DNA of 64,000 nt from Motilibacteraceae bacterium (GTDB taxonomy: Bacteria > Actinomycetota > Actinomycetes > Motilibacterales > Motilibacteraceae), in NCBI GenBank assembly GCA_051953655.1, contig JBQCIO010000106.1, positions 8,052 through 72,051 of the forward strand, in the 5' to 3' direction. Below the pieces are notes generated by a model. The model was not told where the DNA came from. It made no database searches and saw only the letters and a list, made by a program, of their open reading frames with translations. Of this stretch, positions 5,029-23,679 are shown piece after piece (the first letter of the stretch is position 1; the number at the start of each line of letters is the position of its first letter). A program made the position numbers and the translations under genes.

Positions 5029-5077
5029 TCCGTCCGTCGTGGAGCGCCGCCCGCCCGCAGGACACGCGGGCGGAACG

Positions 5078-7275: not shown

Positions 7276-7286
7276 CTCTCCACCCC

Positions 7287-9499: not shown

Positions 9500-9570
9500 C
9501 GCTCCTCACTCCGCCCTTCGGCTTTCGTTGCTTGTCCCGACTTCCTGCCGCCTTGACGACCTTGCAGAGT

Positions 9571-9609
9571 GCAGGGAGGGCTGCGCAACGTTCACGTAGC
9601 CCTCCCTGC
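9571..9609 (-). terminator. perfect 12-bp stem hairpin between the two pilin genes (attenuator / partial terminator candidate)
   Basis: GCAGGGAGGGCT (9571-9582), a 15-nt loop, then AGCCCTCCCTGC (9598-9609). It lies 27 nt downstream of the major pilin stop at 9636. There is no U-tract, which is common for high-GC actinobacterial terminators. Confidence 0.5.
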
Positions 9610-9635
9610 CGCCGTGTCAGCGCTATCGCTACCGA

Positions 9636-10091
9636 CTAGTAGTCAGTGGTGGCAACGCAGTCGGCACCGTTGACGAGGCCCGCCTGGGCCGTGTACTTGA
9701 ACAGCTGGACGGAACCCTGCGTGTTCTGGACCGCGACGCACCAGTGGGTGGCGTCAGTGAAGTGCTGCGACTTGAGCGTCACATTCGCACTCGCGGCACC
9801 GATGTCCTGAGCCGTCGCCCCCGTGGTACCAGCCGTGAGCGTGTAGCGGCCACCAGTCGTGAGGGCGAGGGTCGGCGCCGTCGTGTTGTCGACGTAGTAG
9901 GTCGCCACCTCCTTGCCAATCGTGCTGACGTCAGCCTTCGCCGCCGTGTCCTGCGCCTTCTTGCGCTGGTTCAGGAAGACCGGGATGGCGATGGCGGCAA
10001 GGATGCCGATGATGATCATGACGACCAGGAGCTCGATGAGCGTGAAGCCCTGCTCCTTCTCGTCCATGGCCTTGCGGATGCGAGCGAGCAT
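9636..10091 (-). CDS. pilA: major type IV pilin (prepilin)
   Basis: Trimmed from track ORF 9636-10433 to the ATG at 10091. It reads MLARIRKAMDEKEQG|FTLIELLVVMIIIGILAAIAIPVFLNQRKKAQD. An ATG at 10067 (MDEKEQG|F) is an alternative start. It has a C-terminal Cys pair (HWCVAVQ...GADCVATTDY), is first in the pilin block and is preceded by a long leader. Confidence 0.88.
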   Translation of the reverse strand: MLARIRKAMDEKEQGFTLIELLVVMIIIGILAAIAIPVFLNQRKKAQDTAAKADVSTIGKEVATYYVDNTTAPTLALTTGGRYTLTAGTTGATAQDIGAASANVTLKSQHFTDATHWCVAVQNTQGSVQLFKYTAQAGLVNGADCVATTDY

Positions 10092-10169
10092 TCGCGTCTG
10101 TCCTTTCCGGACCGGATCGAGTGAGCGCCACGGACCCGGTCCTTGCCCAGTCGCAGTGCGACTGACCGA

Positions 10170-10260
10170 GGCAGCTGGGCCGGCCGCTCCAGGTGGAGCG
10201 CCCCCCTGGCTTTGCGGCCCCACCTCGCGGTGGGTGTGCCGTTTCTGGCCGTGGAGCTCG
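10170..10260 (-). ncRNA. candidate c-di-GMP-I (GEMM-I, type 2) riboswitch aptamer in the pilA 5' leader
   Basis: The minus-strand reading is CACGGCCAGAAAC-GGCACACC-CACC-GCGA-GGUG-GGGCCGCAAAGCC-AGGGGGGCGCUCC-ACCU-GGAGCGGCCGGCCC. Hairpin 1 (CCCACC/GGUGGG) has a GNRA (GCGA) loop. It is flanked 5' by GGCACACC and 3' by CCGCAAAGCC. These align with GGCAAACC...GAAA...GGGACGCAAAGCC of the V. cholerae Vc2 aptamer as I recall it. A second imperfect hairpin follows immediately. This is a visual alignment only; no covariance model was run. Confidence 0.4.
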
Positions 10261-10351
10261 ATGACATCCACGATGTCGGCGCTCTTTCGGCGGCGCTTAA
10301 GCATCCGAGAACGCGACGCTACGAACCACCCTCTCGGACTAGCCCTAACGG

Positions 10352-10390
10352 CTGTGGCCCCGACCAGTCGCACGACTGACGGGGCCACAG
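10352..10390 (-). terminator. 11-bp stem hairpin downstream of pilC
   Basis: CTGTGGCCCCG (10352-10362) pairs with CGGGGCCACAG (10380-10390). The loop itself contains the small palindrome CAGTCGCACGACTG. It lies about 80 nt after the pilC stop. Confidence 0.45.
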
Positions 10391-10469
10391 GAGCGTGACG
10401 ATGAGCAGGCGTCGCTAGCGGCGATGTCCTCAAGGCGGTATAACGACCGGTGAGGCACGACCCAGCGTC

Positions 10470-11693
10470 CTACTTGATGAGGTCAAACACCTTGAAGATG
10501 GGCATGTAGAGCGCGACGATCATCGATCCGATGATCCCGCCCAGGAAGGCGATCATCAGCGGCTCGATCAGGCTGGTGAGCGCCTCAGCTGTCGCCTCCA
10601 CCTCCTGGTCGTAGAAGTCAGAGATCTTGTGCAGCATGGTGTCAAGGGCGCCGGTGTCCTCGCCCACCGCCATCATCTGCACGACCATCGGTGGGAACAC
10701 CTTGTGCTGCTCAAGGGGCTTGGTCAGCGACTCGCCCTTCCGCACGCTCTCCTGGACGTCGCGCACTGCTCGTTCCAGGACGATGTTGCCCGTCGTGGCG
10801 GCGACGATCTCGAGGGACTGCAGGATCGGCACGCCGGAGCGCATCATGGTGCCGAGGTTCCGACTGAAACGGCTGAGTGCGATCTTCCCGAAGAGCGGGC
10901 CGAAGACCGGCATCTTCAGCTTGATGGGGTCCACGACGCTTCGGACGTTCTCCTGGTGCTTGACGCGTCGCCAGACGGCCACCCCGACGATCAGCCCGAC
11001 GAGGATGACCGGACCGAGCAGTTGGAGCGAATGCGAGAGGAAGACCAGCACACGGGTCGGCGCGGGCAGGGTGCCGCCCAGCTGGGCGAACATCTTTGCG
11101 AACACCGGCACGATGAACAGCAGCATGCCGATGACAGCGATGATCGACAGGACGAAGACGACCACCGGATACGTCATCGCCGACTTGATCTTGCCCTTGA
11201 GCTTGACCTCGGCCTCGTAGTTCTCGGCGATCTGCAGCAGGACTGAGTCGAGGAAGCCGCCAACCTCGCCGGCCCGGCACATGTTGACCATGAGCGGCGG
11301 GAAGGCCTTCGGGTGCTTCGCCATCGCCGCCGAGAGCGCGACGCCGGTCTCGACGTCGTTGCGGACCGAGGCGAGGACCTTGGCCAGCTCCTTGTTCTCG
11401 GTCTGGTTGGCGAGGATGTCCAACGCGCGCAGCAGGGACAGACCGGAGTTGATCATCGTCGCGAACTGGCGCGACATGACGGCGAGGTCCTTGAGCTTGA
11501 TCCGACCACCGAGACCAGGGATCTTGAGCTCGGTGTTCACGCCGGTGTTGGCCTTGGTGATGCTGACCGGCGCGTAGCCCATCTGCCGCAGCTTGTTGAC
11601 GACCGCGGCCTGCGACTCGGCCTCGAGCTTGCCGTTGACGATCTTCCCGGCCCGGTCGCGGACCGAGTACTGGAAGGTGGCGGTGGCTGCCAT
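10470..11693 (-). CDS. pilC: type IV pilus platform protein PilC (GspF family)
   Basis: Trimmed from 10470-11960 to the ATG at 11693. It reads MAATATFQYSVRDRAGKIVNGKLEAESQAAVVNKLRQMGYAPV, has two GspF repeats (LSRQFATMINSGLSLLRAL and FSRNLGTMMRSGVPILQSL) and TM segments. The C-terminus is ...MPIFKVFDLIK. Confidence 0.93.
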   Translation of the reverse strand: MAATATFQYSVRDRAGKIVNGKLEAESQAAVVNKLRQMGYAPVSITKANTGVNTELKIPGLGGRIKLKDLAVMSRQFATMINSGLSLLRALDILANQTENKELAKVLASVRNDVETGVALSAAMAKHPKAFPPLMVNMCRAGEVGGFLDSVLLQIAENYEAEVKLKGKIKSAMTYPVVVFVLSIIAVIGMLLFIVPVFAKMFAQLGGTLPAPTRVLVFLSHSLQLLGPVILVGLIVGVAVWRRVKHQENVRSVVDPIKLKMPVFGPLFGKIALSRFSRNLGTMMRSGVPILQSLEIVAATTGNIVLERAVRDVQESVRKGESLTKPLEQHKVFPPMVVQMMAVGEDTGALDTMLHKISDFYDQEVEATAEALTSLIEPLMIAFLGGIIGSMIVALYMPIFKVFDLIK

Positions 11694-11704
11694 GCGTATC
11701 CCTC

Positions 11705-13438
11705 TCAAGCCCGGCCGGTGAGCCGGTTGAAGTCCTCGACGTGGTGGCACTTCTCGAGACCGTGCTCGTAGGTGATCTGACCGCGCCGCACCAGGTCGGC
11801 GAGGTGCTGGTCGAGCGTGTGCATGCCGTGCTGCTGGCCGGCCTGCATCGCGGAGTAGATCTGATGGGTCTTGCCCTCGCGGATGAGGTTGCGGATGGCC
11901 GGGGTGGCCATCATGACCTCGGTGGCGACGACGCGGCCCTTGCCGTCGGGCGTCTTGCACAGGGTCTGGCAGACGACGCCCTGGATGGCGCCGGCCAGCT
12001 GCACGCGCACCTGCTGCTGCTGGTGCGGCGGGAAGACGTCGATGACGCGGTCGATGGTCTGCGCGGCGTCCTGGGTGTGCAGGGTGGCGAAGACCAGGTG
12101 GCCGGTCTCGGCGGCGGTGAGGGCCACCGAGATGGTCTCCAGGTCGCGCATCTCGCCGACCAGGATGATGTCGGGGTCCTGGCGCAGGACGTGCTTGAGC
12201 GCGTTCTGGAAGGACCAGGTGTCCTCCCCCACCTCGCGCTGGTTGACCACGCAGCTCTGGTGGCGGTGGAGGAACTCGATCGGGTCCTCCACCGTCATGA
12301 TGTGGTCCTTGCGGGTCCGGTTAGCCAGGTCGACGATCGCGGCCAGCGTCGTCGACTTGCCCGAGCCCGTGGGACCGGTGACCAGGACGAAGCCGCGCGG
12401 CAGCTGGGCGAAGTTCGCCACCACCGGGGGGACGCCGAGGTCCTCGAGCTTCTTGATCTCGTAGGGGATGAGCCGGAACGCGGCGCCCAGGGCGTCGCGC
12501 TGGCGGTAGAGGTTCACGCGGAAGCGGGCCCGGCCCGGGACCGAGTAGGAGAAGTCGAGCTCGAGCTCCTCCTCGAACTTCTCCCGCTGCTTCTGGGTGA
12601 GGATCGCGTACATGACCCGCTGGATGACCGGCGGCGTCATGACCGGGTAGTCCTCGAGCTGGGTCAGCTCGCCGTGCAGCCGGATGGTCGGGCGGGTGCC
12701 GCTGGTGATGTGCAGGTCCGAGGCCTTGAGCTCGAGGACCTTCTCCAGGATCTCGTTGAGGTTGAGGTCGTCCTCGGTCTGCTGCGCCTCGGTGGAGGCG
12801 CGCGAGTACGCCTCCTCGTCGGCCTCGGACTCCTCCACGACCACCGGGCCGAGGGTGAACGTCTCCGGCTCCGGTTCCGGGACCAGCGACAGCGGCGTCG
12901 ACGCGGGCGCGGCGGCCTCGGGGGCGAGCAGGTACGACGTCGACGACGGCTGCTCGACGGGCGGGATCGTGTAGGTCTGGTCGTACGACGGCTGGTAGGA
13001 CAGGTCCTCGACCTGGCGGACCTGCGGCGCGTACGCCGACGTCTCCCCCGCCGGCTGGTAGCCGGTCTGGGCCAGCGCCTCGAACGAGGACGGCGCGAAC
13101 GGCTGGGTCTCCCCCGCCGGGTCGAAGTGCACCGCCTCGTAGGAAGGGGGCGCGGCGGCGGGCTCGGGCTGCCACGACGCGGCGTAGGACTGCCACTCCG
13201 AGCCAGCGCCCGCGGTGTAGGAGGACGCCGGCGCGCTGAGCGCGTCGTCGACCGGAGCCGCCGGCGCGGGCGGCTGGTAGCCACCGGTGGCGTCGAAGGA
13301 GTAGCTCCAGCCACCGGCGCCGCCGTCGGCGGCGAGCGGCGACGGCCCGGGCGCGAAGCCGCCGGCCAGCTGCTCGGGCTCCTCGCCCGTCGGGTATCCC
13401 GGAGTGGTCACCGTCGCATCCCCTCGTGCTCGTCCCAC
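11705..13438 (-). CDS. pilT: twitching-motility retraction ATPase PilT with a ~224-aa low-complexity N-terminal extension
   Basis: The C-terminal ~350 aa is a canonical PilT: ASDLHITSGTRPTIRLHGEL, Walker A GPTGSGKSTT, DPDIILVGEMRDLETI, HLVFATLHT, and AIRNLIREGKTHQIYSAMQ. The preceding 224 aa are Pro/Ala/Tyr/Gln/Ser-rich but keep strong G/C third-position bias. They also fill what would otherwise be a 770-nt gap. Confidence 0.88.
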   Translation of the reverse strand: MGRARGDATVTTPGYPTGEEPEQLAGGFAPGPSPLAADGGAGGWSYSFDATGGYQPPAPAAPVDDALSAPASSYTAGAGSEWQSYAASWQPEPAAAPPSYEAVHFDPAGETQPFAPSSFEALAQTGYQPAGETSAYAPQVRQVEDLSYQPSYDQTYTIPPVEQPSSTSYLLAPEAAAPASTPLSLVPEPEPETFTLGPVVVEESEADEEAYSRASTEAQQTEDDLNLNEILEKVLELKASDLHITSGTRPTIRLHGELTQLEDYPVMTPPVIQRVMYAILTQKQREKFEEELELDFSYSVPGRARFRVNLYRQRDALGAAFRLIPYEIKKLEDLGVPPVVANFAQLPRGFVLVTGPTGSGKSTTLAAIVDLANRTRKDHIMTVEDPIEFLHRHQSCVVNQREVGEDTWSFQNALKHVLRQDPDIILVGEMRDLETISVALTAAETGHLVFATLHTQDAAQTIDRVIDVFPPHQQQQVRVQLAGAIQGVVCQTLCKTPDGKGRVVATEVMMATPAIRNLIREGKTHQIYSAMQAGQQHGMHTLDQHLADLVRRGQITYEHGLEKCHHVEDFNRLTGRA

Positions 13439-13541
13439 CCGCGGCGCGGGTGCGGTCCGTCCTGAGGAGGCATCGGCGGGGGCGGGAGGCGGCTTGAGGC
13501 TCTACGCCCCACGCAGCAGGGCGAAGGACCTACGTCGACAG

Positions 13542-15257
13542 TTACACGACGACGCGGAGGATCTCGTCGATGGACGTGACGCCCTGGCGCACCTTGTCCA
13601 TCCCGTCGTTCCGCAGCGTGATCATGCCCTGCTCGCGGGCGACCTCGCCGACGGCGGAGGCCGAGGCGCGCTCGACGCAGAGCCGCTCGATCTCCTCGGT
13701 GACCGGCATGACCTCGTGCAGCGCGAGCCGGCCCTTGTAGCCGGTTTTCGCGCACACCGAGCAGCCCACCGGGCGGAACAGCTCGGGCAGCTCCTCGCCG
13801 TCCTGCCACGGGTAGCGGGTGGACAGCAGCTGCTCCGGCGTCGGCGTGTAGGGCTCCTTGCACTTGCTGCACAGCCGGCGCGCGAGCCGCTGGGCCAGCA
13901 CGCAGTCAAGCGCGGAGCCGACGAGGAACGGCTCGATGCCCATCTCGGTCAACCGGGTCACCGCCGACGGCGCGTCGTTAGTGTGCAGCGTGGAGAGCAC
14001 GAGGTGACCGGTGAGGGCGGCCTCGACCGCGATCTGCCCGGTCTCGTGGTCACGGATCTCACCGATGAGCACGACGTCGGGGTCCGAGCGAAGGATCGAG
14101 CGCAGCGCCGCGGCGAACGTCAGGCCGGCCTTCTGGTTGGTCTGCACCTGGTTGATGCCCGGCAGCCGGTACTCGACCGGGTCCTCGACCGTGATGACGT
14201 TGATCTCCGGCCGGCTGACGATGTTCATCGTCGCGTAGAGCGTGGTCGACTTGCCCGAACCGGTCGGGCCGGTGACCAGGATCATCCCGTAGGGCTTGGT
14301 GAAGCTCACCGAGTAACGGTCGTAGTTGGACGGCGAGAAGCCGAGGTCGGCCAGGTCCAGCCGTGCGGTGGAGTTGTCCAGGATTCGCATGACGACCTTC
14401 TCGCCCCACACCGTGGGGAGGGTCGCGACGCGGAGGTCGACCTTCTTGCCGTGCGCGTTCACCGACAGGCGGCCGTCCTGCGGGATGCGCCGCTCGGCGA
14501 TGTTGATGTCCGCCATGATCTTGAGGCGGCTGATGACGCCGGACTGGATCGCCTTGGGCGAGCGCATGACCTCGTGCAGCACGCCGTCGATGCGGAAGCG
14601 CACCCGCAGGTCGTGCTCGGTCGGCTCGAGGTGGATGTCGGAGGCGCGGTCCTGGATGGCCTGGGTGATGAGCAGGTTGACGTACTTGACGATCGGCGCG
14701 TCCTCGACGATCTCCTTGACCTTGGAGAGGTCGTCCTCGTCCTCGGCCTGCGCGTCGAGCACGCTGGTGAGGTCGTCGAGGTCGGAGTCCGCGCGGTAGA
14801 AGCGGTCGATGGCCGCGAGCACGTCGCCGCGGGTGGCGACGACGGCGCGCACCTCCATGCCGGTGATGGAGCGCAGGTCGTCGATGGCGAAGACGTTGGC
14901 CGGGTCGGCCATCGCCACCAGCAGCCGGCCCTCCTCGAACCCGATCGGCAGCGCGGTGTGCCGGCGCGCGACGGTGCCGGGCACGCGGCCGATCGCGGAG
15001 CCGTCGACGGCGTAGTCGGTGAGCTCGACGAAGCGCAGCCCGATCTGCGTGGCCAGGGCGGCGACGAGCTGGGCCTCGGTGAGCACGCCGGAGTCGACCA
15101 GCACCCGACCGAGGCTGCGGCCCTGCCGCTGCTGCTCCTCGTAGGCGCCGACCAGCTGGTCCTCGCTGACCAATCCCCCCTCGAGGAGGATGTCGCCGAG
15201 CTGCTTCACCCCGCGCTCCCGTCCGTCACGTCGTCCACTCCACCATCGGGCGGACAC
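13542..15257 (-). CDS. pilB: type IV pilus extension ATPase PilB (GspE family)
   Basis: It has an N-terminal MshEN/GSPII_E_N-like region (LGDILLEGGLVSEDQL...LGRVLVDSGVLTEAQL), Walker A GPTGSGKSTT, and DPDVVLIGEIRDHET. It also has a tetracysteine motif (CSKC...CSVC). The more likely start is GTG 15209 (VKQLGDILL), which has GGGAG upstream. Confidence 0.93.
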   Translation of the reverse strand: MSARWWSGRRDGRERGVKQLGDILLEGGLVSEDQLVGAYEEQQRQGRSLGRVLVDSGVLTEAQLVAALATQIGLRFVELTDYAVDGSAIGRVPGTVARRHTALPIGFEEGRLLVAMADPANVFAIDDLRSITGMEVRAVVATRGDVLAAIDRFYRADSDLDDLTSVLDAQAEDEDDLSKVKEIVEDAPIVKYVNLLITQAIQDRASDIHLEPTEHDLRVRFRIDGVLHEVMRSPKAIQSGVISRLKIMADINIAERRIPQDGRLSVNAHGKKVDLRVATLPTVWGEKVVMRILDNSTARLDLADLGFSPSNYDRYSVSFTKPYGMILVTGPTGSGKSTTLYATMNIVSRPEINVITVEDPVEYRLPGINQVQTNQKAGLTFAAALRSILRSDPDVVLIGEIRDHETGQIAVEAALTGHLVLSTLHTNDAPSAVTRLTEMGIEPFLVGSALDCVLAQRLARRLCSKCKEPYTPTPEQLLSTRYPWQDGEELPELFRPVGCSVCAKTGYKGRLALHEVMPVTEEIERLCVERASASAVGEVAREQGMITLRNDGMDKVRQGVTSIDEILRVVV

Positions 15258-15291
15258 CCCCCGACCTTGACCAGTCCTGGGCGCGAGCCCC

Positions 15292-15648
15292 TCAGTCCCT
15301 GGGCTGCAGCAACCTCGTGGCGGCGGCGAGCAGCGCCGCGGCCTGCGGCGAGGCCGCGGGCATCCGCTCGCTGCGGCCGTCGGTGAAGCCGAGCTCGACG
15401 ACGGGCTCGTCGGGCTCCGCAGCGGGCGCAGCGGGTGGTTGCGGCGCGGGCCGGCGCGGGAGCACGGCGTCGTCCGCGGATGTCCTCGGGACCGGCACGA
15501 AGACGGGTTCGGCCGCGAGGGCGGCGGCCAGCGGCGTCGACGGCGGCTCAGCCGCGCGGGATGCCCCTACCGACCGCACCGACGACGTCGGCCGTCCGGC
15601 CGCGTGCCGACCGGCGGCCCGCCGCGACCACAGCCGGGACCAGCGCAC
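15292..15648 (-). CDS. hypothetical small Pro/Ala-rich protein between the GTPase gene and pilB
   Basis: 118-aa ORF whose GTG start lies 1 nt after the GTPase stop. It has strong GC3 bias. I recognise no family. Confidence 0.4.
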   Translation of the reverse strand: MRWSRLWSRRAAGRHAAGRPTSSVRSVGASRAAEPPSTPLAAALAAEPVFVPVPRTSADDAVLPRRPAPQPPAAPAAEPDEPVVELGFTDGRSERMPAASPQAAALLAAATRLLQPRD

Positions 15649-15649
15649 G

Positions 15650-16237
15650 TCAGGCCCGCACCGCTTCGGCCTCGAGCTGGTCGAGGACGCCGAACAGCAG
15701 GGACAGCACCACGTTTTTCACCGACTCGCGGTCGGTCGCGTCGCACGGCACGATCGCCACGCTGCCGTCGACGTCGAGCGCGGCCCGTACCTGCTGCTCC
15801 ACGGCCGGGTCCAGCGACGCGGCGCGGTTGAGCGCCACCACGAACGGCACGGTGGCCATGGCGCGGAAGGCGTCGAGGATGCCGCGGCCCTCGGCGAAGG
15901 ACTCGGGGCGGGAGGCGTCCAGGAGCAGGACGTAGCCGAGCATCCCCTCGCCGAGGATCTCCCACATGAAGTCGAAACGCTCCTGCCCGGGCGTGCCGAA
16001 CAGGTAGAGGACGAGCTCGCGGTCGATGGTGATCCGGCCGAAGTCCATCGCGACGGTGGTCTCGGCCTTGCGGGCGCGCTCGCTGCCGTCGCTGGTGCCG
16101 CGTTCGGTGCTGAGCACGGTGATCTCGCTGATGGTGCGGATCAGCGTGGTCTTGCCGGCCGCGTAGGGGCCGGTCACCACCACCTTGACCGCCTGGCCGC
16201 CGTGCCGGCGCCGGGGGCGTCCCTGCCGTGCGGTCAC
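15650..16237 (-). CDS. small Ras-like GTPase, MglA/CvnD (COG2229-like) family
   Basis: 195 aa with P-loop VVVTGPYAAGKTTLI and a switch-I-like region ETTVAMDFGRI. Switch II is LFGTPGQERF; the TPGQ form replaces DxxG, as in MglA-type GTPases. The degenerate G4 motif is VVALNRA. Its GTG start abuts the TAG stop of the upstream gene (TAGGTG). Confidence 0.85.
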   Translation of the reverse strand: MTARQGRPRRRHGGQAVKVVVTGPYAAGKTTLIRTISEITVLSTERGTSDGSERARKAETTVAMDFGRITIDRELVLYLFGTPGQERFDFMWEILGEGMLGYVLLLDASRPESFAEGRGILDAFRAMATVPFVVALNRAASLDPAVEQQVRAALDVDGSVAIVPCDATDRESVKNVVLSLLFGVLDQLEAEAVRA

Positions 16238-17524
16238 CTAGAGACCCCTCACGCCGGCGATGAGACGAAGCATGAGGCTGCGGTTGATGCTCGGGTCCCG
16301 CTCGACCATCGGGGCGCGGTCGGCCGCCATCGCGACGCTGCCGACCACTCCCCCGACCGACGGGGTGCGGGTGGGCAGCGGCGGCAGGGCGGCGCGGGCG
16401 GCCGCGAGCTCGTTCTCGCGCTCGTCGGTGTCGTGCTCCGGGCGGCGCTGGGGCAGGAACGGCTCGGGGCGCGGCGGGATGACGTCGCGCTCGGACGGGG
16501 GCACGAACGGCTGCCCGACCGGCTGCGGAGGAAGGTGCGGCTCGGGGCCCCAGTCGCCGTTCCAGTCGTCGGCGGAGCCATTGGAGTCAGCAGCCTCGTC
16601 GTCCCAGACCTCGACCTGCGGCTCCTCGCCGGGGTCGTCGGGCTGCTCGTCGGGCTGGTCGCCCGGCTCGGTCCCGTTCTCGACGGCGGCGAGGTCGGCC
16701 CGGTCCGCCCGGGCCTCAGCGAAAGGGGGCGCCTCCGGAGCGGGGGCCAGGGGCACTCGCAGGGTGGGCCGTTCCAGGCCGTCGACGACGGCGAGCCGGC
16801 GGGATCGGGCATCGCCGGCGGCGGCGCCGTCGGCGGGCGCGGCCAGACCGCGGCGCTGCAGCTCGCCGAGGGCGGTGAGCACGGTGACCGGGCTGTCTCC
16901 GGCCAGCTCGACGACGTCGGCCACCGTGCGGTGCCCGTCGAGCAGCGCCAGCAGCGCCCACTCCTGCGGCTCGGCGGTCACGGCCTCGGCCACCGGGGCG
17001 AGGCGCAGCACGGCGTCGAGCGGCACCGAGGCGGACAGCGCCTCCCAGGCGGCGGCGCGCTCGCGGGCGGCGGCGACCAGCTGGTCGACCGGCAGGCCGA
17101 GCGAGAGACCCTCCGGCTCGAGCTCGTCGGCGTCGAGGGCGAACTCGCCCTCGTTCCAGTCGAGCAGGTCCACCACGGCGTCGACGGCGTGCTCGCGGGC
17201 CAGCGCCGACACGGCGTCAGAGCCCAGTGCGCCGGCGTCGAGCAGCGAGCGGAGCACTCCTCCCCCAGCACCGACCGCCACCGCTCCGGCGACGGCCGTG
17301 GCCAGGGCGGCGTCGTCGACCGGCAGGGCGGCTACGACGCGGCGTAGGAGGGTGGGGCGGGACAGGTCGGCGCTGGCGTTGGCGACCAGCCCGGCGTCGA
17401 ACCAGACCGCGCCCTCGAGGCCGTCGGCCGCGCGAACGCGCAGTCCACCGGTCTTGCGGGTGGCGGCGAGCAGCTGGAAGACGTCGGGGAGTCCGAACGC
17501 GTCCAGCGAGCCCTCGAGCTTCAC
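16238..17524 (-). CDS. DUF4388 (PATAN)-domain protein with a wHTH-like middle region, acidic Pro-rich linker and conserved-looking C-terminal helix
   Basis: 428 aa. The N-terminus MKLEGSLDAFGLPDVFQLLAATRKTGGLRVR...WNEGEFALD matches my recollection of the DUF4388/PATAN consensus. The middle region LLALLDGHRTVADVVELAGDSPVTVLTALGELQRRGL resembles the wHTH of conservon DUF742 proteins. A DE/P-rich disordered stretch follows, and the protein ends ...SINRSLMLRLIAGVRGL. Confidence 0.75.
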   Translation of the reverse strand: MKLEGSLDAFGLPDVFQLLAATRKTGGLRVRAADGLEGAVWFDAGLVANASADLSRPTLLRRVVAALPVDDAALATAVAGAVAVGAGGGVLRSLLDAGALGSDAVSALAREHAVDAVVDLLDWNEGEFALDADELEPEGLSLGLPVDQLVAAARERAAAWEALSASVPLDAVLRLAPVAEAVTAEPQEWALLALLDGHRTVADVVELAGDSPVTVLTALGELQRRGLAAPADGAAAGDARSRRLAVVDGLERPTLRVPLAPAPEAPPFAEARADRADLAAVENGTEPGDQPDEQPDDPGEEPQVEVWDDEAADSNGSADDWNGDWGPEPHLPPQPVGQPFVPPSERDVIPPRPEPFLPQRRPEHDTDERENELAAARAALPPLPTRTPSVGGVVGSVAMAADRAPMVERDPSINRSLMLRLIAGVRGL

Positions 17525-17566
17525 GGCGGCCTCGTCTGCGTGCAGGTGGGGTGGGACGGGAAGGGA

Positions 17567-18193
17567 CTACCAGGCCGGCGGCGGCGTGGGGTGCCCGTTG
17601 ACCGGCTGTCCGTTCACGGGCTGGCCGTTGAGCACGGGCGCTGCCTGCTGCGGGGCCCACTCGCCGGCCGGCCAGCCGGTGCCCGGAGCGCGGTCGGCGG
17701 TCTTCTCGGCGTAGGCGGGCTCGTAGGGGACGGCCGCGGCGGCGACGCCCTCGAGCACCTCGGCGGCCTCGTCCAGCGAGGTGAACGGGTCGTCGGCGCG
17801 CAGGGCGGCGGCCACCGCGGCGGCGGCGTGGCGGACCTCGTAGAGCATCAGACCGGTCTTGGCGCCCTTGGCGGCCACGGCCACCAGGACGGCCTCGTCG
17901 TCGGCGGAGACCAGGAAGACGGTGCCCTCCTCGGCCTCGACGAAGACCTGCGACAGGTCGCCGCGGCCCAGGCCCTCGGCGGCCCGCTCGCCCAGCGAGA
18001 GCAGCGCGGCGCTCATCGCGGCCACCCGGTCCTCGTCCATGAACGGCGGCAGCGCCGAGGCCATCGGCAGGCCGTCGAAGGTGACGACCGCGGCGGCCTC
18101 GAGCTCGGGGGCCTGCGCGAGCAGGTCACCCAGCACGCGGGCCAGCCGGGAGGCCCGGCCGGGGCCGGCAGGCAGGTCGTACGACTCGGGCAC
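17567..18193 (-). CDS. Roadblock/LC7 (MglB/CvnB-like) protein with a Pro-rich repeat tail
   Basis: Trimmed from 17567-18355 to GTG 18193, which has GAAGAGG 6 nt upstream. The core reads LARVLGDLLAQAPELEAAAVVTFDGLPMASAL...LSQVFVEAEEGTVFLVSADDEAVLVAVAAKGAKTGLMLYEV. The tail reads ...VLNGQPVNGQPVNGHPTPPPAW. Confidence 0.8.
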   Translation of the reverse strand: MPESYDLPAGPGRASRLARVLGDLLAQAPELEAAAVVTFDGLPMASALPPFMDEDRVAAMSAALLSLGERAAEGLGRGDLSQVFVEAEEGTVFLVSADDEAVLVAVAAKGAKTGLMLYEVRHAAAAVAAALRADDPFTSLDEAAEVLEGVAAAAVPYEPAYAEKTADRAPGTGWPAGEWAPQQAAPVLNGQPVNGQPVNGHPTPPPAW

Positions 18194-18322
18194 GGGGCAC
18201 CTCTTCGCTGCGCGGGGCGCACCCGTCGGCGCGCCGTCACCCCTCCCATCGGCCGGGCGGTGGCTCGTCTTGACCCTGCTGAACGGGCTACCTGCGGCGA
18301 GCGTTACAGGGGGCAAGTCCAT

Positions 18323-18418
18323 TTCGGAACGATCACGTCCCCGCGATCGATTCATGCTTACCGCGCCAGATCTGTCGCGGTAAGCAGGTAAGGACCACGC
18401 CCCCGTGATCGTTCCGAA
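18323..18418. repeat. 96-nt nested inverted-repeat element in the aroE / Roadblock intergenic region
   Basis: The outer arms are a perfect 15 bp: TTCGGAACGATCACG (18323-18337) and CGTGATCGTTCCGAA (18404-18418). The inner hairpin has a perfect 9-bp stem, CTTACCGCG (18357-18365) and CGCGGTAAG (18376-18384), with the loop CCAGATCTGT. Confidence 0.7.
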
Positions 18419-18431
18419 CGGGCCCGGGGGG

Positions 18432-19271
18432 TCAGGCGCGGGCGGCGAGGGCGCGCTCGCCGGCGGCGCGCATGACGTCGACCAGGCGACCGGTCCCGTC
18501 GGCGGGCTCCTGGCCGGTCATCAGGGCGACCTGCAGGACCGCCTGGTGGACCAGCAGGTCCAGGCCGCCGACGACGAGGCCGCCGGAGCGCTGCCAGGCC
18601 GCGGCCAGGGCGGTGGGCCAGGGGTGGTAGACGACGTCGAAGAGGGTGCGCGGCGCGATAGGCAGGGCGGCCGCCAGGCCGGCGGCGGCGTCGCCGGGGA
18701 CGGTGCTGACCACCAGGTCGCGGGCGAGCAGGCCGCTGGAAGGGTCGGCCGCCTCGGCCCAGGGGCGGACGTCCGGCCGCACCCCCAGCCGGGCCGCGGC
18801 GTCGAGCAGCTCGCCCACCGCCTCCGGCCGGCGCACGACGACGGCCGCCTCGCGGACCCCGAGGTCGGACAGCGCGGCCAGCGCGGAGGTGGCGGTCGCT
18901 CCCCCGCCGACAACGGTGGCCGACGCCGCACCGAAGACCCCGCGCTCGCGCAGCGCCGCCACCATGCCAGGGACGTCGGTGTTCGCCCCCAGCCGGCGAC
19001 CTCGGCCGAGCACGACCGTGTTCACCGCGTGCACCTGCCGGGCCAGCGGGCTGACCCAGTCCAGCAGCGGGATGACCGCGCGCTTGAGCGGCATGGTGAG
19101 CGACAGCCCGGCCCACGAGGCGTCCAGCCCGGCGAGGAACCCCGGGAGATCGGTCTCCGTCACGTCGTAGGAGTCGTAGCTCCAGTCCAGCCCGAGCTCG
19201 GCGTAGGCGGCGCGGTGCAGCACCGGGGACAGGCTGTGGGCGATCGGCGACCCGAGGACGGCGGCTCTCAC
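18432..19271 (-). CDS. aroE: shikimate dehydrogenase
   Basis: Trimmed from 18432-20594 to GTG 19271, which forms a GTGA overlap with the mltG stop. It reads [28 protein letters not shown]...SLTMPLKRAV...HAVNTVV...GANTDVPG...VVGGGATATSA. Confidence 0.9.
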   Translation of the reverse strand: MRAAVLGSPIAHSLSPVLHRAAYAELGLDWSYDSYDVTETDLPGFLAGLDASWAGLSLTMPLKRAVIPLLDWVSPLARQVHAVNTVVLGRGRRLGANTDVPGMVAALRERGVFGAASATVVGGGATATSALAALSDLGVREAAVVVRRPEAVGELLDAAARLGVRPDVRPWAEAADPSSGLLARDLVVSTVPGDAAAGLAAALPIAPRTLFDVVYHPWPTALAAAWQRSGGLVVGGLDLLVHQAVLQVALMTGQEPADGTGRLVDVMRAAGERALAARA

Positions 19272-20395
19272 TGACCCGGGTGGTCCCGCAGCCACTTCTG
19301 GAACTCGGCCACGTTCTTCTGGTGCTCGGCGTCGGTGACCGCGAACTTGGTCTCGCCGGTGTCCGGGTTGACCGTGACGAAGTAGAGCCACGGGCCGTCG
19401 GCCGGGTTGAGCGCGGCCTTGATCGCGTTCTCGCCGGGCGAGTCGATCGGGCCCGGCGGCAGCCCGTCGTGCACGTAGGTGTTGTACGGCGACTTGGAGG
19501 CGCGGTCCTGGTCCGAAGTGGTGATGCCCGGCTTGCCGGTGGCGTAGGACACCGTGGAGTCCAGCTGCAGCCGCATGCCCTTGTTCAGCCGGTTGTAGAG
19601 CACCCGCGCCACCTTGGCCTGGTCGGCCGGCGGGGCCTCCTTCTCGGCGATGCTGGCCACGGTGAGGATCTGCAGCGGGGTGTACCGCTTGCCGTCGATG
19701 GTCGCGCCGTCGCCCAGCCCGGTGTCCTGCGCCGCCTGGTCGAAGCGCTTCACCGCCGCGGCCAGCACGTCCTGCGCCTTCACCCCCGGCTTGAAGGTGT
19801 AGGTGGCCGGGAAGACGAAGCCCTCGAGGTTGCCCTTGGGCGTCCAGTCCGGCGCCCCCAGCGCGGCCGGGTCCTTGGCCGCGGCCTGCAGGTCGGTCAG
19901 CCGGATGTCGGTGGCCTTCGCGATGGCCTGCAACGACTCCTTGAGCCGCAGCCCCTCGCGCAGCAGCACCCGCTCCTGCACCCGGCTCGTCGGGTCGAGC
20001 AGCAACGACACGGCGTCGGAGGCCTTCATCTTCTGCTTGAGCGCGTAGACGCCAGGCTGCACCGAGGCGGCCTTGGGGTTGACCTTCGCCGCGTCCACGA
20101 ACGCACCCACGCTGGCGACGACGTCGGCCTTGGCCAGCGTCTGCCCGATGGCCGTGAGGGTGGACCCGCTGGCCACCTCGACCTGCACCTGGCCGGTGCC
20201 GGGCCCGGGGTAGTCCTCCGGCCCGCCGTGCGGGATCAGCCCGCGCAGGGCGTAGGCCCCGGCGCCGACCACGCCGAGCACGAGCAGCAGCACGACGAGC
20301 ATCGCGATGCCCACCGCGCGCCGCCCGCGGCGGCGGTGGCGCCGCTGGCGCTCCTGCTCCTCGCTCTCGGACAGCCCGAGGCCCAGCGAGCTCAT
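19268..20395 (-). CDS. mltG: endolytic murein transglycosylase MltG (YceG family)
   Basis: Trimmed from 19268-21619 to the ATG at 20395. It has an N-terminal TM ([21 protein letters not shown]) and the YceG core LREGLRLKE...[11 protein letters not shown]...[12 protein letters not shown]...VLYNRL...LQLDSTVSY...[20 protein letters not shown]. Confidence 0.9.
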
Positions 20396-20955
20396 CGCGT
20401 CCCTCCGTCCGTGCTGCCGGTCGTGTCGCTGTCCCCGTGGCTGCTGTGCTGGTTCCCGCTGCCGGCACTGCCCACCCCAGCATCGACCACGGTGCCGGGC
20501 GGCCGCCCGCTGCCGCGCTCGGCGTCGCGCGCGGACTGCAGGATGACGACGGCCGCGGCCTGGTCGACCACGTCGCGCCGGGTGCGGGCTGCACGCTTCC
20601 CGGTGAGGCCCGAGTCGCGCAAGCCCCGCTGGGCGGTGACCGTGCTCAGCCGCTCGTCCACCAGCCGCACCGGCACCGGCGCGAGCCGGCGGGCCAGCGC
20701 GGCGGCGAAGGTGCGGGCGTCGCCGGCCGAGGCGCCCTCGGCGCCGGACAGGTGCCGGGGCAGCCCGACGACCACCTCGAGCACCTCGTGCTCGGCGGCC
20801 AGCGCCACCACCCGGTCGAGGTCGCCGCGTCCGCGCCGGACGGTCTCCAGCGGGGTGGCCAGCAGGGCCGAGGGGTCGCAGGCCGCGACGCCGATGCGCA
20901 CCGTGCCGACGTCGACGCCGAGCCTGACCCCCCGCCGCACCTCGCCGGGCGTCAC
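20392..20955 (-). CDS. ruvX: Holliday junction resolvase-like nuclease RuvX (YqgF)
   Basis: 187 aa with [18 protein letters not shown]...[11 protein letters not shown]...VDERLSTV. It has an ATGA-type overlap with mltG. Confidence 0.88.
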
Positions 20956-20958
20956 CGC

Positions 20959-23679
<2,721 letters not shown>

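What the first reader, a model, noticed from the sequence alone, without database searches (positions are those of the whole stretch)
15292..18193. MglA/MglB-like GTPase switch (Roadblock + PATAN/DUF4388 + small GTPase + small ORF) fused to the front of an actinobacterial type IV pilus operon
Seen in sequence:
- Four co-directional genes sit immediately upstream of pilB with almost no intergenic space. The gaps are 42 nt (Roadblock to PATAN), TAG|GTG abutting (PATAN to GTPase), 1 nt (GTPase to small ORF), and about 35-80 nt (small ORF to pilB).
- The products are a Roadblock/LC7 protein, and a 428-aa protein with an N-terminal DUF4388/PATAN-like domain, a wHTH-like segment, an acidic Pro-rich linker and a conserved-looking C-terminal helix.
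- They are followed by a 195-aa Ras-like GTPase with the MglA-style TPGQ switch II, and an unassignable 118-aa Pro/Ala-rich ORF.

Established knowledge:
- MglA (GTPase) and MglB (Roadblock GAP) set the polarity of T4P motility in Myxococcus.
- PATAN-domain regulators contact PilB/PilC in cyanobacterial phototaxis.
- Streptomyces conservons pair a Roadblock protein (CvnB) with a GTPase (CvnD) plus a sensor kinase (CvnA) and DUF742 (CvnC).

Inference: this looks like a hybrid. It is a conservon-like GTPase/Roadblock pair that lacks the kinase, has a PATAN protein in the DUF742 position, and is wired to a Gram-positive T4P motor. I am not aware of such a module being characterised for actinobacterial pili, so it is my best candidate for an undescribed regulatory system in this window.
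Basis: partly seen in the sequence, partly recalled or inferred. Interest (0 to 1): 0.85.

Follow-up and report, generated by a model that had tools for sequence, protein, structure and literature searches.

The report
GTPase switch module heading pilus operon
Four small regulatory genes (a Roadblock protein, a PATAN-domain adaptor, a Ras-like GTPase and a previously overlooked mini-protein) sit at the head of a type IV pilus operon in a group of soil and freshwater actinobacteria. They most likely act as a molecular on/off switch for pilus assembly; the parts are known, but this wiring has not been described.

Summary
The module is Roadblock, then PATAN(DUF4388)-wHTH-linker-C-helix protein, then a 195-aa GTPase, then a 118-aa ORF, followed by pilB-pilT-pilC.

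- **Conservation.** The order is kept in 63 of 68 related genomes that have enough downstream flank.
- **Small ORF.** The "unassignable" ORF is a real, conserved fourth gene. It has an N-terminal GRH motif and a C-terminal LGFxDG domain.
- **Promoter.** An exact match to the published actinobacterial WhiG/FliA (sigma-28) promoter consensus lies 54 nt upstream of the Roadblock gene, and a second lies upstream of pilT. None lies before pilB. In relatives without the module, the same motif sits directly before pilB. The module and pilB therefore look like one transcription unit.
- **GTPase.** It is 47% identical to the conservon GTPase CvnD and 43% identical to a Deinococcus "Group 5 MglA".
- **Prior knowledge.** The MglB-PATAN-MglA trio was already catalogued in 2014, including in Acidothermus, but without any pilus link.
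- **Not a conservon.** There is no kinase and no DUF742 protein.
- **PATAN-only variants.** Some pilB loci have only a PATAN gene upstream, and that protein keeps the same C-terminal helix motif. This marks PATAN as the pilus-proximal effector.

Verdict: a new, pilus-dedicated four-gene variant of a known but uncharacterised GTPase/Roadblock/PATAN module. Function is inferred, not shown.

The parts
18246..18273 (-). WhiG/FliA (sigma-28)-type promoter P1, TCAAGACGAGCCACCGCCCGGCCGATGG. It lies in the aroE-Roadblock intergenic region, 54 nt upstream of the Roadblock start.
   Evidence: It matches the published actinobacterial queries T(A/C)AA-N16-GCCGA and CTCA-N16-17-GCCGA exactly. The window holds 3 matches against 0.06 expected. 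The same motif lies 33-93 nt upstream of the Roadblock gene in 46 related loci. Across those loci it occurs 106 times on the pil strand and 0 times on the other strand.
17567..18193 (-). Roadblock/LC7 protein, 208 aa. The Robl domain spans about aa 23-106. A variable Pro/Ala-rich tail follows, ending in a conserved terminal Trp ('PAW' here; 'xWS-COOH' in most orthologues).
   Evidence: Pfam Robl_LC7 at 7e-16. PDB hits are 7f8m at 5e-18 and cvnB5 (3leq) at 2e-8. It is 39% identical to a Deinococcus Group 5 MglB and 29% identical to CvnB.
16238..17524 (-). PATAN adaptor protein, 428 aa. Layout: PATAN/DUF4388 (aa 4-160), MarR-like wHTH (about aa 183-232), acidic Pro-rich disordered linker (aa 234-408, containing the VIPPRPEPFLPQRR motif), and an invariant C-terminal amphipathic helix ERDPSINRSLMLRLIAGVRGL (aa 408-428; nt 16241-16303).
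   Evidence: Pfam; alignment A1; AlphaFold model with pLDDT above 85 for residues 1-230. The wHTH is acidic and its recognition helix has a median of 1 basic residue. The C-terminal motif is also kept in PATAN-only pilB-linked proteins.
15650..16237 (-). CvnD-like / 'Group 5 MglA' small GTPase, 195 aa. P-loop G23-T30; switch I T60-T61 (Thr where MglA has its Arg finger); G3 F80-GTPGQ85; G4 is LNRA (N137) rather than NKxD.
   Evidence: Pfam ATP_bind_1 at 1e-18 and Ras at 5e-6. 47% identical to CvnD and 43% to the D. proteolyticus Group 5 GTPase. Alignment to Thermus MglA. Motif conservation across 80 orthologues.
15292..15648 (-). Conserved small fourth component, 118 aa. It has an N-terminal basic W/R-rich segment with a GRH motif (aa 13-15), a variable Pro/Ala-rich spacer, and a C-terminal domain of about 32 aa, VVELGFTDG...LLAAATRLL (aa 83-114). 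Its start is 1 nt after the GTPase stop.
   Evidence: An ORF with coding-type GC3 starts 0-25 nt after the GTPase stop in nearly all loci. An HMM built from 20 short-type members was searched against 15,044 six-frame ORF segments; every hit is at this position, including the window (E 0.01). A second-round HMM gave 67 hits, all at this position. No Pfam family matches. The NCBI MAG annotates only a 68-aa piece, and another gene caller missed it.
13542..15257 (-). PilB extension ATPase with an N-terminal MshEN c-di-GMP-binding domain. The likely true start is GTG 15209.
   Evidence: TIGR02538 at 1e-197; MshEN at 3e-22; c-di-GMP motif NF053729 at 4e-16. Orthologues start at MKQLGD.
13470..13497 (-). 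Second WhiG/FliA-type promoter P2, between the pilB stop and the pilT start.
   Evidence: The same position carries the motif in 41 related loci.
10470..13438 (-). pilT (11705-13438, with an N-terminal low-complexity extension of about 220 aa) and pilC (about 10470-11690).
   Evidence: TIGR01420 at 2e-148; T2SSF at 5e-67.

Best explanation
The region encodes a four-protein G-protein switch that forms the promoter-proximal part of the pilB transcription unit and controls type IV pilus (T4P) extension after translation.

Proposed mechanism, with each step marked as shown or inferred:

1. A WhiG/FliA-type sigma factor transcribes Roadblock-PATAN-GTPase-small ORF-pilB as one mRNA, so the switch is made only when the pilus motor is made. 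The motif and its comparative placement are shown; transcription itself is inferred.
2. The CvnD-like GTPase cycles between two nucleotide states. It keeps the catalytic Gln (TPGQ) but lacks MglA's intrinsic Arg finger, so hydrolysis should depend on partners. The sequence features are shown; the rest is inferred.
3. The Roadblock protein, probably a dimer, acts as the GAP or nucleotide-state regulator, as MglB does for MglA. The translationally coupled small protein acts as a co-regulator, and its conserved GRH arginine is a candidate trans Arg finger. This step is inferred and speculative.
4. The PATAN-wHTH protein is the effector. Its PATAN domain contacts the N-terminal region of PilB and/or the cytoplasmic domain of PilC, as cyanobacterial PATAN domains do. 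Its invariant C-terminal amphipathic helix, at the end of a disordered tether of about 170 residues, anchors it to the pilus base or the membrane. This step is inferred. The C-helix motif survives in PATAN-only pilB loci that lack the GTPase and Roadblock, so its partner is not the G-module.
5. The nucleotide state of the GTPase decides whether the adaptor permits or blocks PilB engagement, or where in the cell it happens. This would work alongside c-di-GMP inputs on PilB (MshEN domain) and on the pilin mRNA (riboswitch).
For: - **Gene content and conservation.** Robl-PATAN-GTPase is followed by pilB-pilT-pilC on the same strand in 63 of 68 testable genomes. This holds across Motilibacteraceae, Acidothermaceae, Sporichthyaceae, Frankiaceae, Nanopelagicales and the cultured Longivirga aurantiaca.
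- **Independent PilB-seeded survey.** 17 of 43 pilB loci carry the full trio directly upstream.
- **Operon evidence.** Stops and starts abut (0, 1 and 42 nt). Across the related loci, the exact sigma-28/WhiG motif occurs 106 times on the pil strand and 0 times on the opposite strand. Of these, 46 lie upstream of the Roadblock gene, 41 upstream of pilT and only 8 between the GTPase and pilB, mostly where extra genes are inserted. In loci without the module, the motif sits directly upstream of pilB or of the gene that precedes it.
- **GTPase and Roadblock homology.**
- **Fourth gene.**
- **PATAN as the pilus-proximal element.** Eight of 43 pilB loci lack the GTPase but have a PATAN gene directly upstream of pilB (seven PATAN-only, one Roadblock+PATAN). 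The five translated in full show the same architecture, four with the C-terminal motif EPINRGLLLKFLSSVR.
- **Published precedent.** The PATAN domain alone binds the PilB1 N-terminal domain and the PilC N-terminal domain, and reverses motility, in Synechocystis (bioRxiv 10.1101/2021.06.11.447907). MglA-GTP stimulates T4P formation in Myxococcus (PMC7519303 and PMC7668184, listed). PATAN proteins were recovered near the T4P activator SgmX in Myxococcus (PMC11580455). T4P clusters are WhiG/FliA targets in other actinobacteria (PMC8325347 and PMC12871210).
- **Against a DNA-binding role.** The wHTH is acidic and lacks basic residues in its recognition helix.
Against: - There are no experimental data for any member of this family, and no multimer modelling could be run, so every protein-protein contact is inferred.
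- The module is not obligatory for these pili. 17 of 43 close pilB relatives have no module within 8 kb upstream.
- In 5 of 68 genomes the module is followed by polysaccharide-synthesis genes rather than pilB.
- The small gene is absent in at least three loci (L015, L017, L025), where pilB follows the GTPase directly.
- The GTPase lacks the NKxD aspartate (LNRA), so even its nucleotide specificity is unproven.
- The promoter assignment rests on motif matches only.
- No input sensor is evident.
Confidence: 0.6

Rival explanations
1. The module is a transcriptional regulator. The PATAN-wHTH protein would bind DNA through its MarR-like winged helix, the GTPase/Roadblock pair would modulate it, and it would control expression of pil or other genes, much as conservons alter gene expression in Streptomyces.
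For: A MarR_2-like wHTH is detected in 21 of 27 homologues. Conservon (Cvn8) mutants change transcription of target clusters (PMC13343842). The GTPase is 47% identical to CvnD.
Against: The wHTH region has a median net charge of -3, and its putative recognition helix has a median of one basic residue. The whole protein is strongly acidic. PATAN domains act by direct binding to PilB/PilC where this has been tested. The long tether and terminal helix look like an anchoring device, not a repressor. No conserved operator-like repeat was looked for or seen.
Confidence: 0.12
2. The module is a general cell-surface or polarity switch, for example for exopolysaccharide export or envelope growth zones. 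The pilus would be only one of several outputs, or only a neighbour.
For: In 5 of 68 genomes the module is followed by a Wzx-type flippase, a sugar transferase or GT2 genes instead of pilB. Wzy_C genes are inserted between the module and pilB in others. MglA in Myxococcus controls more than one machine (established knowledge; PMC4316618).
Against: 93% of testable loci have pilB next. The sigma-28 motif placement ties the module to pilB. PATAN-only genes are also tied to pilB. Wzy_C proteins next to pil genes may be pilin O-glycosyltransferases (my own knowledge of PilO/TfpO/PglL, not tested here).
Confidence: 0.15
3. The module is a kinase-less, degenerate conservon (AGPS) that happens to be retained next to pil genes by vertical inheritance and has no functional tie to the pilus.
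For: The GTPase and Roadblock are homologous to CvnD and CvnB. All carriers belong to related actinobacterial lineages, so shared ancestry explains some of the synteny.
Against: Roadblock (median 77% identity) and the GTPase (74%) are as conserved as PilB (79%). The PATAN protein keeps invariant motifs at about 40% overall identity, which indicates purifying selection. Start/stop coupling and the shared promoter are conserved. No DUF742 or CvnA remnants are present. The Roadblock is closer to non-conservon Group 5 MglB.
Confidence: 0.05

Closest known systems
'MglA Group 5' MglB-PATAN-MglA gene trios (Wuichet & Sogaard-Andersen 2014, Table S2; for example Acidothermus Acel_1323, Aquifex aq_1844, Deinococcus proteolyticus Deipr_2135)
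   Same: Same three gene types, and in many cases the same order (MglB>PATAN>MglA). The GTPase is about 175-195 aa and lacks the intrinsic Arg finger. The window GTPase is 43% identical and the Roadblock 39% identical to the D. proteolyticus pair.
   Different: In the window's family the trio is embedded as the leader of a pilB operon under a sigma-28-type promoter and has a conserved fourth small gene. The PATAN protein also carries a wHTH, a long acidic linker and an invariant C-terminal helix. The Deinococcus locus has no pil genes nearby. No Group 5 system has been characterised experimentally, as far as the library shows.
Actinobacterial conservons / AGPS (CvnA-CvnB-CvnC-CvnD)
   Same: The GTPase is 47% identical to CvnD, with identical TTVAMDFGRI and FGTPGQERF motifs and the same loss of NKxD. 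A Roadblock partner is encoded upstream. A wHTH-containing protein sits between the Roadblock and GTPase genes.
   Different: There is no CvnA kinase and no DUF742 protein. The middle gene is a PATAN protein. The output is apparently a pilus motor rather than gene expression or gyrase protection.
Myxococcus/Thermus MglA-MglB polarity module controlling T4P
   Same: A Ras-like GTPase with the TxxGQ G3 motif and a catalytic Gln, paired with a Roadblock partner. There is a functional link to T4P (MglA-GTP with SgmX stimulates T4P formation).
   Different: Sequence similarity is only marginal (E 3e-4 to Thermus MglA). Thr replaces the intrinsic Arg finger. The genes are in the pil operon, whereas mglBA is unlinked to pil genes in Myxococcus. 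No RomR/RomX/RomY or Frz homologues are seen in the operon.
Cyanobacterial PatA-type PATAN response regulators (PixG, PixE, LsiR)
   Same: An N-terminal PATAN/DUF4388 domain. In Synechocystis this domain alone binds the PilB1 N-terminal domain and the PilC N-terminal domain and sets the direction of T4P motility.
   Different: There is no receiver domain. The input would be a GTPase state rather than phosphorylation or photoreceptor binding. The protein has an extra wHTH, a disordered linker and a C-terminal helix.

Membership tests
MglA Group 5 MglB-PATAN-MglA trio | Adjacent genes for a Roadblock/MglB homologue, a PATAN (DUF4388) protein and a small MglA-family GTPase | tested here: met
   Pfam hits. 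The gene order is conserved in 76 of 76 loci for Roadblock and in all loci for the GTPase. The pattern matches Table S2.
MglA Group 5 MglB-PATAN-MglA trio | GTPase and Roadblock sequence-related to a listed Group 5 pair | tested here: met
   The D. proteolyticus pDEIPR01 locus (hypothetical protein-GTPase-Roadblock) gives 43% identity for the GTPase (E 1e-30) and 39% for the Roadblock (E 2e-23).
MglA Group 5 MglB-PATAN-MglA trio | Orthology to the listed actinobacterial member Acel_1323 | not tested
This is inferred from its identical neighbourhood and length (193 aa), and from Acidothermaceae MAG loci L015, L047 and L074 that carry the module.
Conservon / AGPS | CvnD-type GTPase | tested here: met
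   47% identity to the GTPase of a canonical Kitasatospora conservon; PF03029.
Conservon / AGPS | CvnB-type Roadblock protein | tested here: met
   29% identity (E 1e-7) to CvnB; PDB cvnB5 (3leq) at 2e-8. It is closer to non-conservon Roadblocks.
Conservon / AGPS | CvnC (DUF742) protein | tested here: not met
   No DUF742 hit in any of the 27 PATAN homologues. hhalign probability is below 1%. tblastn with CvnC finds nothing in the window or in 80 loci.
Conservon / AGPS | CvnA histidine-kinase-like sensor in synteny | tested here: not met
   tblastn with CvnA gives no hit in the 64-kb window or within 10 kb either side in 80 loci.
MglA/MglB sensu stricto (Group 1; Myxococcus, Thermus) | TxxGQ G3 motif with catalytic Gln | tested here: met
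   FGTPGQ is invariant in 80 orthologues.
MglA/MglB sensu stricto (Group 1; Myxococcus, Thermus) | Intrinsic arginine finger in switch I | tested here: not met
   In the HMMER alignment to Thermus MglA, the Arg position aligns with T60, which is invariant in orthologues.
MglA/MglB sensu stricto (Group 1; Myxococcus, Thermus) | Roadblock partner has GAP activity on the GTPase | not testable with these tools
   This needs biochemistry.
PatA-type PATAN response regulators | N-terminal PATAN domain | tested here: met
   DUF4388 at 3.5e-19; found in 27 of 27 homologues.
PatA-type PATAN response regulators | C-terminal CheY-like receiver domain | tested here: not met
   No Response_reg hit. The C-terminal half is a wHTH plus a disordered linker plus a helix.
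PatA-type PATAN response regulators | Direct binding of the PATAN domain to PilB / PilC | not testable with these tools
Supported only indirectly, by PATAN-pilB adjacency.
WhiG/FliA (sigma-28) regulon promoters of Actinomycetota | Match to T(A/C)AA-N16-GCCGA or CTCA-N16-17-GCCGA within 200 bp of a start codon | tested here: met
   Window 18246-18273 is an exact match, 54 nt upstream of the Roadblock start. The motif is strand- and position-specific across 160 loci.
WhiG/FliA (sigma-28) regulon promoters of Actinomycetota | Transcription start and sigma-factor dependence | not testable with these tools
   This needs 5' end mapping or in vitro transcription.

The most novel reading that the evidence does not exclude
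A kinase-less, four-component G-protein system is the dedicated spatial/temporal controller of type IV pilus extension in a broad set of monoderm actinobacteria. Its parts are a Roadblock regulator, a CvnD-like GTPase, a small GRH-motif co-GAP that supplies an arginine in trans, and a PATAN-wHTH adaptor tethered to the pilus base by an invariant C-terminal helix. It would be the first system in which a conservon-type GTPase has a directly readable molecular output. It would also be an evolutionary intermediate linking the ancient MglB-PATAN-MglA trios to the actinobacterial conservons.
Probability: 0.25. Interest if true: 0.8.

Novelty: new variant of a known kind. Interest (0 to 1): 0.6.

Why it matters
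Three lines of work have so far been connected only by hints:
- MglA/MglB GTPase switches steer type IV pili in Myxococcus.
- PATAN domains bind the PilB/PilC motor in cyanobacteria.
- Conservon (CvnD-type) GTPases are abundant in actinobacteria, but their outputs are largely unknown.

Here all three elements are encoded in one operon with the pilus extension ATPase and appear to be driven by one promoter. This gives a natural minimal system for three questions:
- How does a Roadblock/GTPase pair talk to a PATAN effector?
- What does the PATAN domain do to the motor?
- How do CvnD-like GTPases that lack an Arg finger hydrolyse GTP?

The finding also adds a conserved mini-protein that gene callers miss. 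Finally, it shows a three-layer control of an actinobacterial pilus: sigma-28, c-di-GMP and a G-protein.

Tried and rejected
- **Sigma-70 promoter and intrinsic terminator scan of 13000-19000.** Nothing was found, which is uninformative at 72% GC.
- **First WhiG scan.** I used the classical TAAA/GCCGATAA consensus with at most 2 mismatches and found nothing in the window. The site emerged only after comparative scanning at 3 mismatches showed the local variant TCAAG-N15-GCCGATGG.
- **Test of PATAN wHTH = DUF742/CvnC.** Negative at HMM and profile level. I did not pursue a deeper profile-profile test, because both are generic wHTH folds and a weak hit would not be specific.
- **Structure-based annotation of the PATAN protein.** A PDB profile search gave nothing. 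A Foldseek search of the AlphaFold model against PDB gave nothing significant; the best hits (E 0.2) were about 68-residue wHTH-like pieces of SEA/GATOR complexes.
- **Database search for the small protein.** Only one hit, a 68-aa fragment annotated in a Motilibacteraceae MAG. Pfam found nothing. I therefore used my own HMMs on the fetched loci.
- **Exact-sequence look-ups.** Look-ups of P0121 and of the PATAN ORF (translated with V as first residue) failed. The GTPase look-up worked.
- **Papers not held.** The Actinoplanes pilus and flagellar papers (Kimura 2019, Jang 2016) are not in the library.
- **Chance or hitch-hiking synteny.** Rejected on conservation and promoter placement.
- **Defence or mobile-element origin.** Rejected: no such genes are present, and the locus sits in the conserved alaS-ruvX-mltG-aroE chromosomal context.

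Full report
**1. Observation**

All genes lie on the minus strand. The ORF table and translations give the following:
- a Roadblock ORF at 17567-18193 (GTG start; the ORF is open up to 18355);
- a 428-aa ORF at 16238-17524;
- a 195-aa ORF at 15650-16237;
- a 118-aa ORF at 15292-15648;
- pilB at 13542-15257.

The gaps are 42 nt, 0 nt (TAG directly followed by GTG), 1 nt and 34 nt. The last gap becomes 82 nt if pilB starts at GTG 15209 ('VKQLGD'), which is where orthologues start. An independent gene caller on an identical metagenomic contig also calls Roadblock at 208 aa, PATAN at 428 aa and the GTPase at 195 aa.

Pfam confirms Robl_LC7 (7e-16) and DUF4388/PATAN (3.5e-19). For the GTPase it finds ATP_bind_1/PF03029 (1e-18) and Ras (5e-6). 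The small ORF matches no family. pilB, pilT and pilC are unambiguous, and PilB carries an MshEN c-di-GMP-binding N-terminus.

The cluster continues with two pilins, three large minor-pilin-like proteins, pilD and pilMNO. Upstream lie aroE, mltG, ruvX and alaS. The closest database relatives are Motilibacteraceae MAGs.

**2. Conservation of the arrangement**

I aligned 27 homologues of the PATAN protein (A1) and scanned one genome per species of GTDB. The scan found 211 loci, of which 80 were fetched. A tblastn search with the window's proteins gave these results:
- Roadblock is immediately upstream in 76 of 76 testable loci.
- The GTPase is immediately downstream in all loci.
- Of 68 loci with at least 3 kb of downstream sequence, 63 have pilB on the same strand, 57 of them within 800 nt, usually followed by pilT and pilC.
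- Median identity to the window is 77% for Roadblock, 74% for the GTPase, 79% for PilB and 39% for PATAN.

The five loci without pilB have polysaccharide genes instead: a Wzx-type flippase, a sugar transferase and GT2 enzymes. In at least two loci (L059, L074) a Wzy_C gene is inserted between the module and pilB.

The carriers are Motilibacteraceae, Acidothermaceae, Sporichthyaceae, Frankiaceae/Frankiales, 'Nanopelagicales' and unclassified Actinomycetes MAGs. One is a cultured strain, Longivirga aurantiaca.

**3. The small ORF is a gene**

In almost every locus an ORF with a coding-type GC1/GC2/GC3 pattern begins 0-25 nt after the GTPase stop. Lengths run from about 50 to 316 aa.

All versions share two features. 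The first is a basic, W/R-rich N-terminus with a G-R-H(R) motif. The second is a C-terminal segment of about 35 aa, h-x-L-x-F-x-D-G-x4-L-x2-D-x-P-x4-F-x3-A-x2-L. The short forms are essentially just these two elements (GRHRRPDPPVRVTLVLxDGxExxLPxDSAxARAMGQVAALLAHW).

I built an HMM from only the 20 short forms and searched all 15,044 six-frame ORF segments of at least 40 aa from the 81 sequences. Every one of its 54 hits was the ORF at this position. These included about 30 long forms that were not used to build the model, and the window's ORF (E 0.01). A second-round model gave 67 hits, again all at that position.

The gene is absent in at least three loci (L015, L017, L025), where pilB follows the GTPase directly. 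Databases barely know this protein. There is a single hit, a 68-aa fragment annotated in a Motilibacteraceae MAG, and another gene caller skipped the ORF entirely.

**4. The GTPase and Roadblock**

The GTPase motifs are nearly invariant across 80 orthologues: GP(F/Y)AAGKTT, KAETTVAMDFGRI, LFGTPGQ(D/E)RF, VPFVVALNR and VPCDA.

Against Thermus MglA the match is marginal (E 3e-4). In that alignment MglA's intrinsic Arg finger aligns with Thr60, and NKxD aligns with LNRA.

By contrast, the protein is 47% identical (E 3e-44) to the 'ATP/GTP-binding protein' of a canonical Kitasatospora conservon. That operon reads ATP-binding HK, roadblock, DUF742, GTPase, P450. Its GTPase has the same motifs and the same loss of NKxD. 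The window GTPase is also 43% identical to the GTPase of the Deinococcus proteolyticus locus hypothetical protein-GTPase-Roadblock. Wuichet and Sogaard-Andersen list that locus as 'MglA Group 5, PATAN>MglA>MglB'.

The Roadblock is closer to the Deinococcus one (39% identity, E 2e-23) than to CvnB (29%, E 1e-7). Its best PDB matches are stand-alone Roadblock proteins and cvnB5. Orthologues carry a variable Pro-rich tail that ends in a conserved Trp: 'xWS-COOH' in most, 'PAW' in the window.

No CvnA-like kinase and no DUF742 protein is found in the window or in any of the 80 loci.

**5. The PATAN protein**

AlphaFold, run with alignment A1, gives a confident model for residues 1-230 (pLDDT 85-96). 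This region is the PATAN domain with its helical insertion followed by a winged helix. Residues 234-408 are disordered, and a short C-terminal helix spans 411-422.

The alignment shows two islands of near-invariance in the otherwise unalignable acidic, Pro-rich half. These are V(V/I)PPRPEPFLPxRQ and the extreme C-terminus (I/V)ERDPx(V/I)NRSL(M/L)LRLIAGVRGL. The C-terminal motif forms an amphipathic helix with Arg on the polar side (my reading of the sequence).

The wHTH matches MarR_2 weakly in 21 of 27 members and never matches DUF742. Its median net charge is -3, and the recognition helix has a median of one basic residue. This argues for protein binding rather than DNA binding. No solved structure resembles the model significantly.

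**6. Reverse survey**

I scanned JGI metagenomes with the window's PilB and obtained 80 loci at 64-87% identity. Of the 43 loci with at least 3 kb upstream:
- 17 have the full trio;
- 1 has PATAN plus the GTPase;
- 1 has Roadblock plus PATAN;
- 7 have only a PATAN gene directly upstream of pilB;
- 17 have none. In those examined, pilB is preceded by aroE, mltG or a Wzy_C gene.

The PATAN-only proteins are confirmed DUF4388 proteins of about 300-435 aa. The five I translated in full have the same build: PATAN, a wHTH-like segment, an acidic low-complexity linker and a C-terminal motif. In four of them (L152, L154, L160, L161) the motif is (E/D)PINRGLLLKFLSSVR(N/S), clearly the same motif as in the window.

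Two conclusions follow:
- The module is an optional add-on to these pilus clusters. The PATAN protein is the element most tightly tied to pilB.
- The partner of the invariant C-terminal helix cannot be the GTPase, the Roadblock or the small protein, because the helix persists without them. It must be something common to all these loci, meaning a pilus-machine component or the membrane. This second conclusion is an inference.

**7. Transcription unit**

A scan for WhiG/FliA-type promoters in orthologous upstream regions revealed a local variant. The exact pattern TCAAG-N15-GCCGAT occurs three times in the window, all on the minus strand, against 0.06 expected:
- 18273-18248, 54 nt upstream of the Roadblock start, in the aroE-Roadblock spacer;
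- 13497-13472, between pilB and pilT;
- one N17 match inside the pilB coding sequence, which I take to be coincidental.

The extended consensus from 168 sites is gCTCAAG-N15-GCCGATg. Flanking positions that were not part of the search pattern are also conserved. This consensus is an exact match to both query motifs used for actinobacterial WhiG2 (T(A/C)AA-N16-GCCGA) and WhiG1/FliA (CTCA-N16-17-GCCGA) in PMC12871210. That preprint and PMC8325347 report T4P clusters as WhiG/FliA targets in Rubrobacter, Actinoplanes and other families.

Across the 80 genome loci there are 106 matches on the pil strand and none on the other strand. Of these, 46 lie 33-93 nt upstream of the Roadblock gene, 41 lie upstream of pilT, and only 8 lie between the GTPase and pilB. 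Most of those 8 are in loci where extra genes are inserted or the small ORF is missing.

In the independent PilB-seeded set there are 62 matches on the pil strand and none on the other. The motif heads the Roadblock gene in trio loci, the PATAN gene in a PATAN-only locus, and pilB itself (or the Wzy_C gene before it) in loci without the module.

The promoter therefore tracks the first gene of the pilB unit, whatever that gene is. This is strong comparative evidence that Roadblock, PATAN, GTPase, small ORF and pilB are co-transcribed.

**8. Comparison with what is known**

The gene trio is not new as a pattern. Makarova et al. 2006 and Wuichet and Sogaard-Andersen 2014 noted MglB/MglA homologues next to PATAN genes. 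Table S2 of the latter lists '<MglA<PATAN<MglB' for Acidothermus cellulolyticus Acel_1323 (193 aa), among many Group 5 entries. Han et al. remarked that it 'remains to be seen' whether PATAN domains have a conserved role in regulating pilus machines.

The held literature does not contain the following:
- the systematic fusion of this trio to pilB in actinobacteria;
- the fourth gene;
- the domain and motif architecture of the PATAN protein;
- the PATAN-only variants;
- the shared sigma-28 promoter.

The module fails two of the four defining features of a conservon (kinase and DUF742). It also fails the Arg-finger criterion of Group 1 MglA. I therefore file it as a member of the Group 5 trio family, with a GTPase close to CvnD. 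In other words, it is a new, pilus-dedicated four-gene variant of a known but uncharacterised kind.

**9. Mechanism and confidence**

| Claim | Confidence |
|---|---|
| The four genes are real | about 0.95 |
| They are co-transcribed with pilB | about 0.8 |
| They regulate the pilus | about 0.7 |
| The specific wiring described below | about 0.4 |

The specific wiring is that Roadblock, with or without the small protein, sets the GTPase state, and that state gates a PATAN adaptor which contacts PilB/PilC and is anchored by its C-helix. The suggestion that the GRH arginine acts in trans is speculation. It is prompted by the missing intrinsic Arg finger and by the tight translational coupling.

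The rival explanations are a wHTH-based transcriptional role, a broader surface or polarity role, and an inert conservon remnant. They are listed with their tests in the rival-explanations section.

**10. Limits**

- Nearly all carriers are MAGs.
- The taxonomy of the metagenomic contigs is unknown.
- Only the best 80 loci of each scan were inspected.
- No multimer modelling or expression data were available.
- The promoter assignment is by motif only.

Noticed in passing
window 10167-10250 (-): A c-di-GMP-I riboswitch (RF01051, 42 bits against a 35-bit gathering threshold, E 7.7e-5) lies in the 5' leader of the major pilin gene. The N_methyl pilin's real start is probably near 10094, 'MLARIRKAMDEKEQGFTLIELLVV'. 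Together with the MshEN c-di-GMP motif on PilB, this suggests that c-di-GMP controls the pilus at two further levels.
   Followed up: partly
window 13470-13497 (-): A second exact WhiG/FliA-type promoter motif lies between the pilB stop and the pilT start. The same position carries the motif in 41 related loci, so pilT-pilC appear to form a separate sigma-28 unit.
   Followed up: yes
window 11705-13438 (-): PilT carries an N-terminal extension of about 220 aa, rich in Pro, Ala and acidic residues, ahead of the PilT core. The TIGR01420 match starts at residue 226. It is unusual for a retraction ATPase.
   Followed up: no
L104, L151, L152, L154, L160, L161, L164 (metagenome loci): In these loci a stand-alone PATAN-wHTH-linker protein is encoded directly upstream of pilB, with no GTPase or Roadblock. 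Four of them (L152, L154, L160, L161) end in the C-terminal motif EPINRGLLLKFLSSVR(N/S). This is a simpler PATAN-only version of the same pilus regulator.
   Followed up: partly
L026, L037, L042, L048, L058; also L059, L074, L096, L108: In five genomes the module is followed by polysaccharide-synthesis genes (Wzx-type flippase, Bac_transf, GT2, sulfotransferase) instead of pilB. In other loci a Wzy_C (O-antigen-ligase-like) gene sits between the module or promoter and pilB. That gene might be a pilin glycosyltransferase or an EPS polymerase.
   Followed up: partly
window 17567-17790 (-), Roadblock C-terminal tail: The tail contains short tandem peptide repeats (NGQPV NGQPV NGHP) and ends in Trp. 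54 of 75 orthologues end in Ser, typically as '...xWS-COOH'. The short forms of the small protein also end in '...LLAHW'. These may be C-terminal Trp-based docking motifs.
   Followed up: partly
window 5078-9083 (-): Three large minor-pilin-like proteins are encoded here. Two, of 598 and 279 aa, have N_methyl motifs. A third, of 520 aa and Ser/Thr/Asn-rich, has no Pfam match. They are candidate pilus-tip or adhesin components.
   Followed up: no
window 1599-21000: The whole pil cluster (module, pilBTC, pilins, pilD, pilMNO) lies downstream of the conserved alaS-ruvX-mltG-aroE block. Relatives that lack the module have pilB directly after aroE or mltG.
   Followed up: partly
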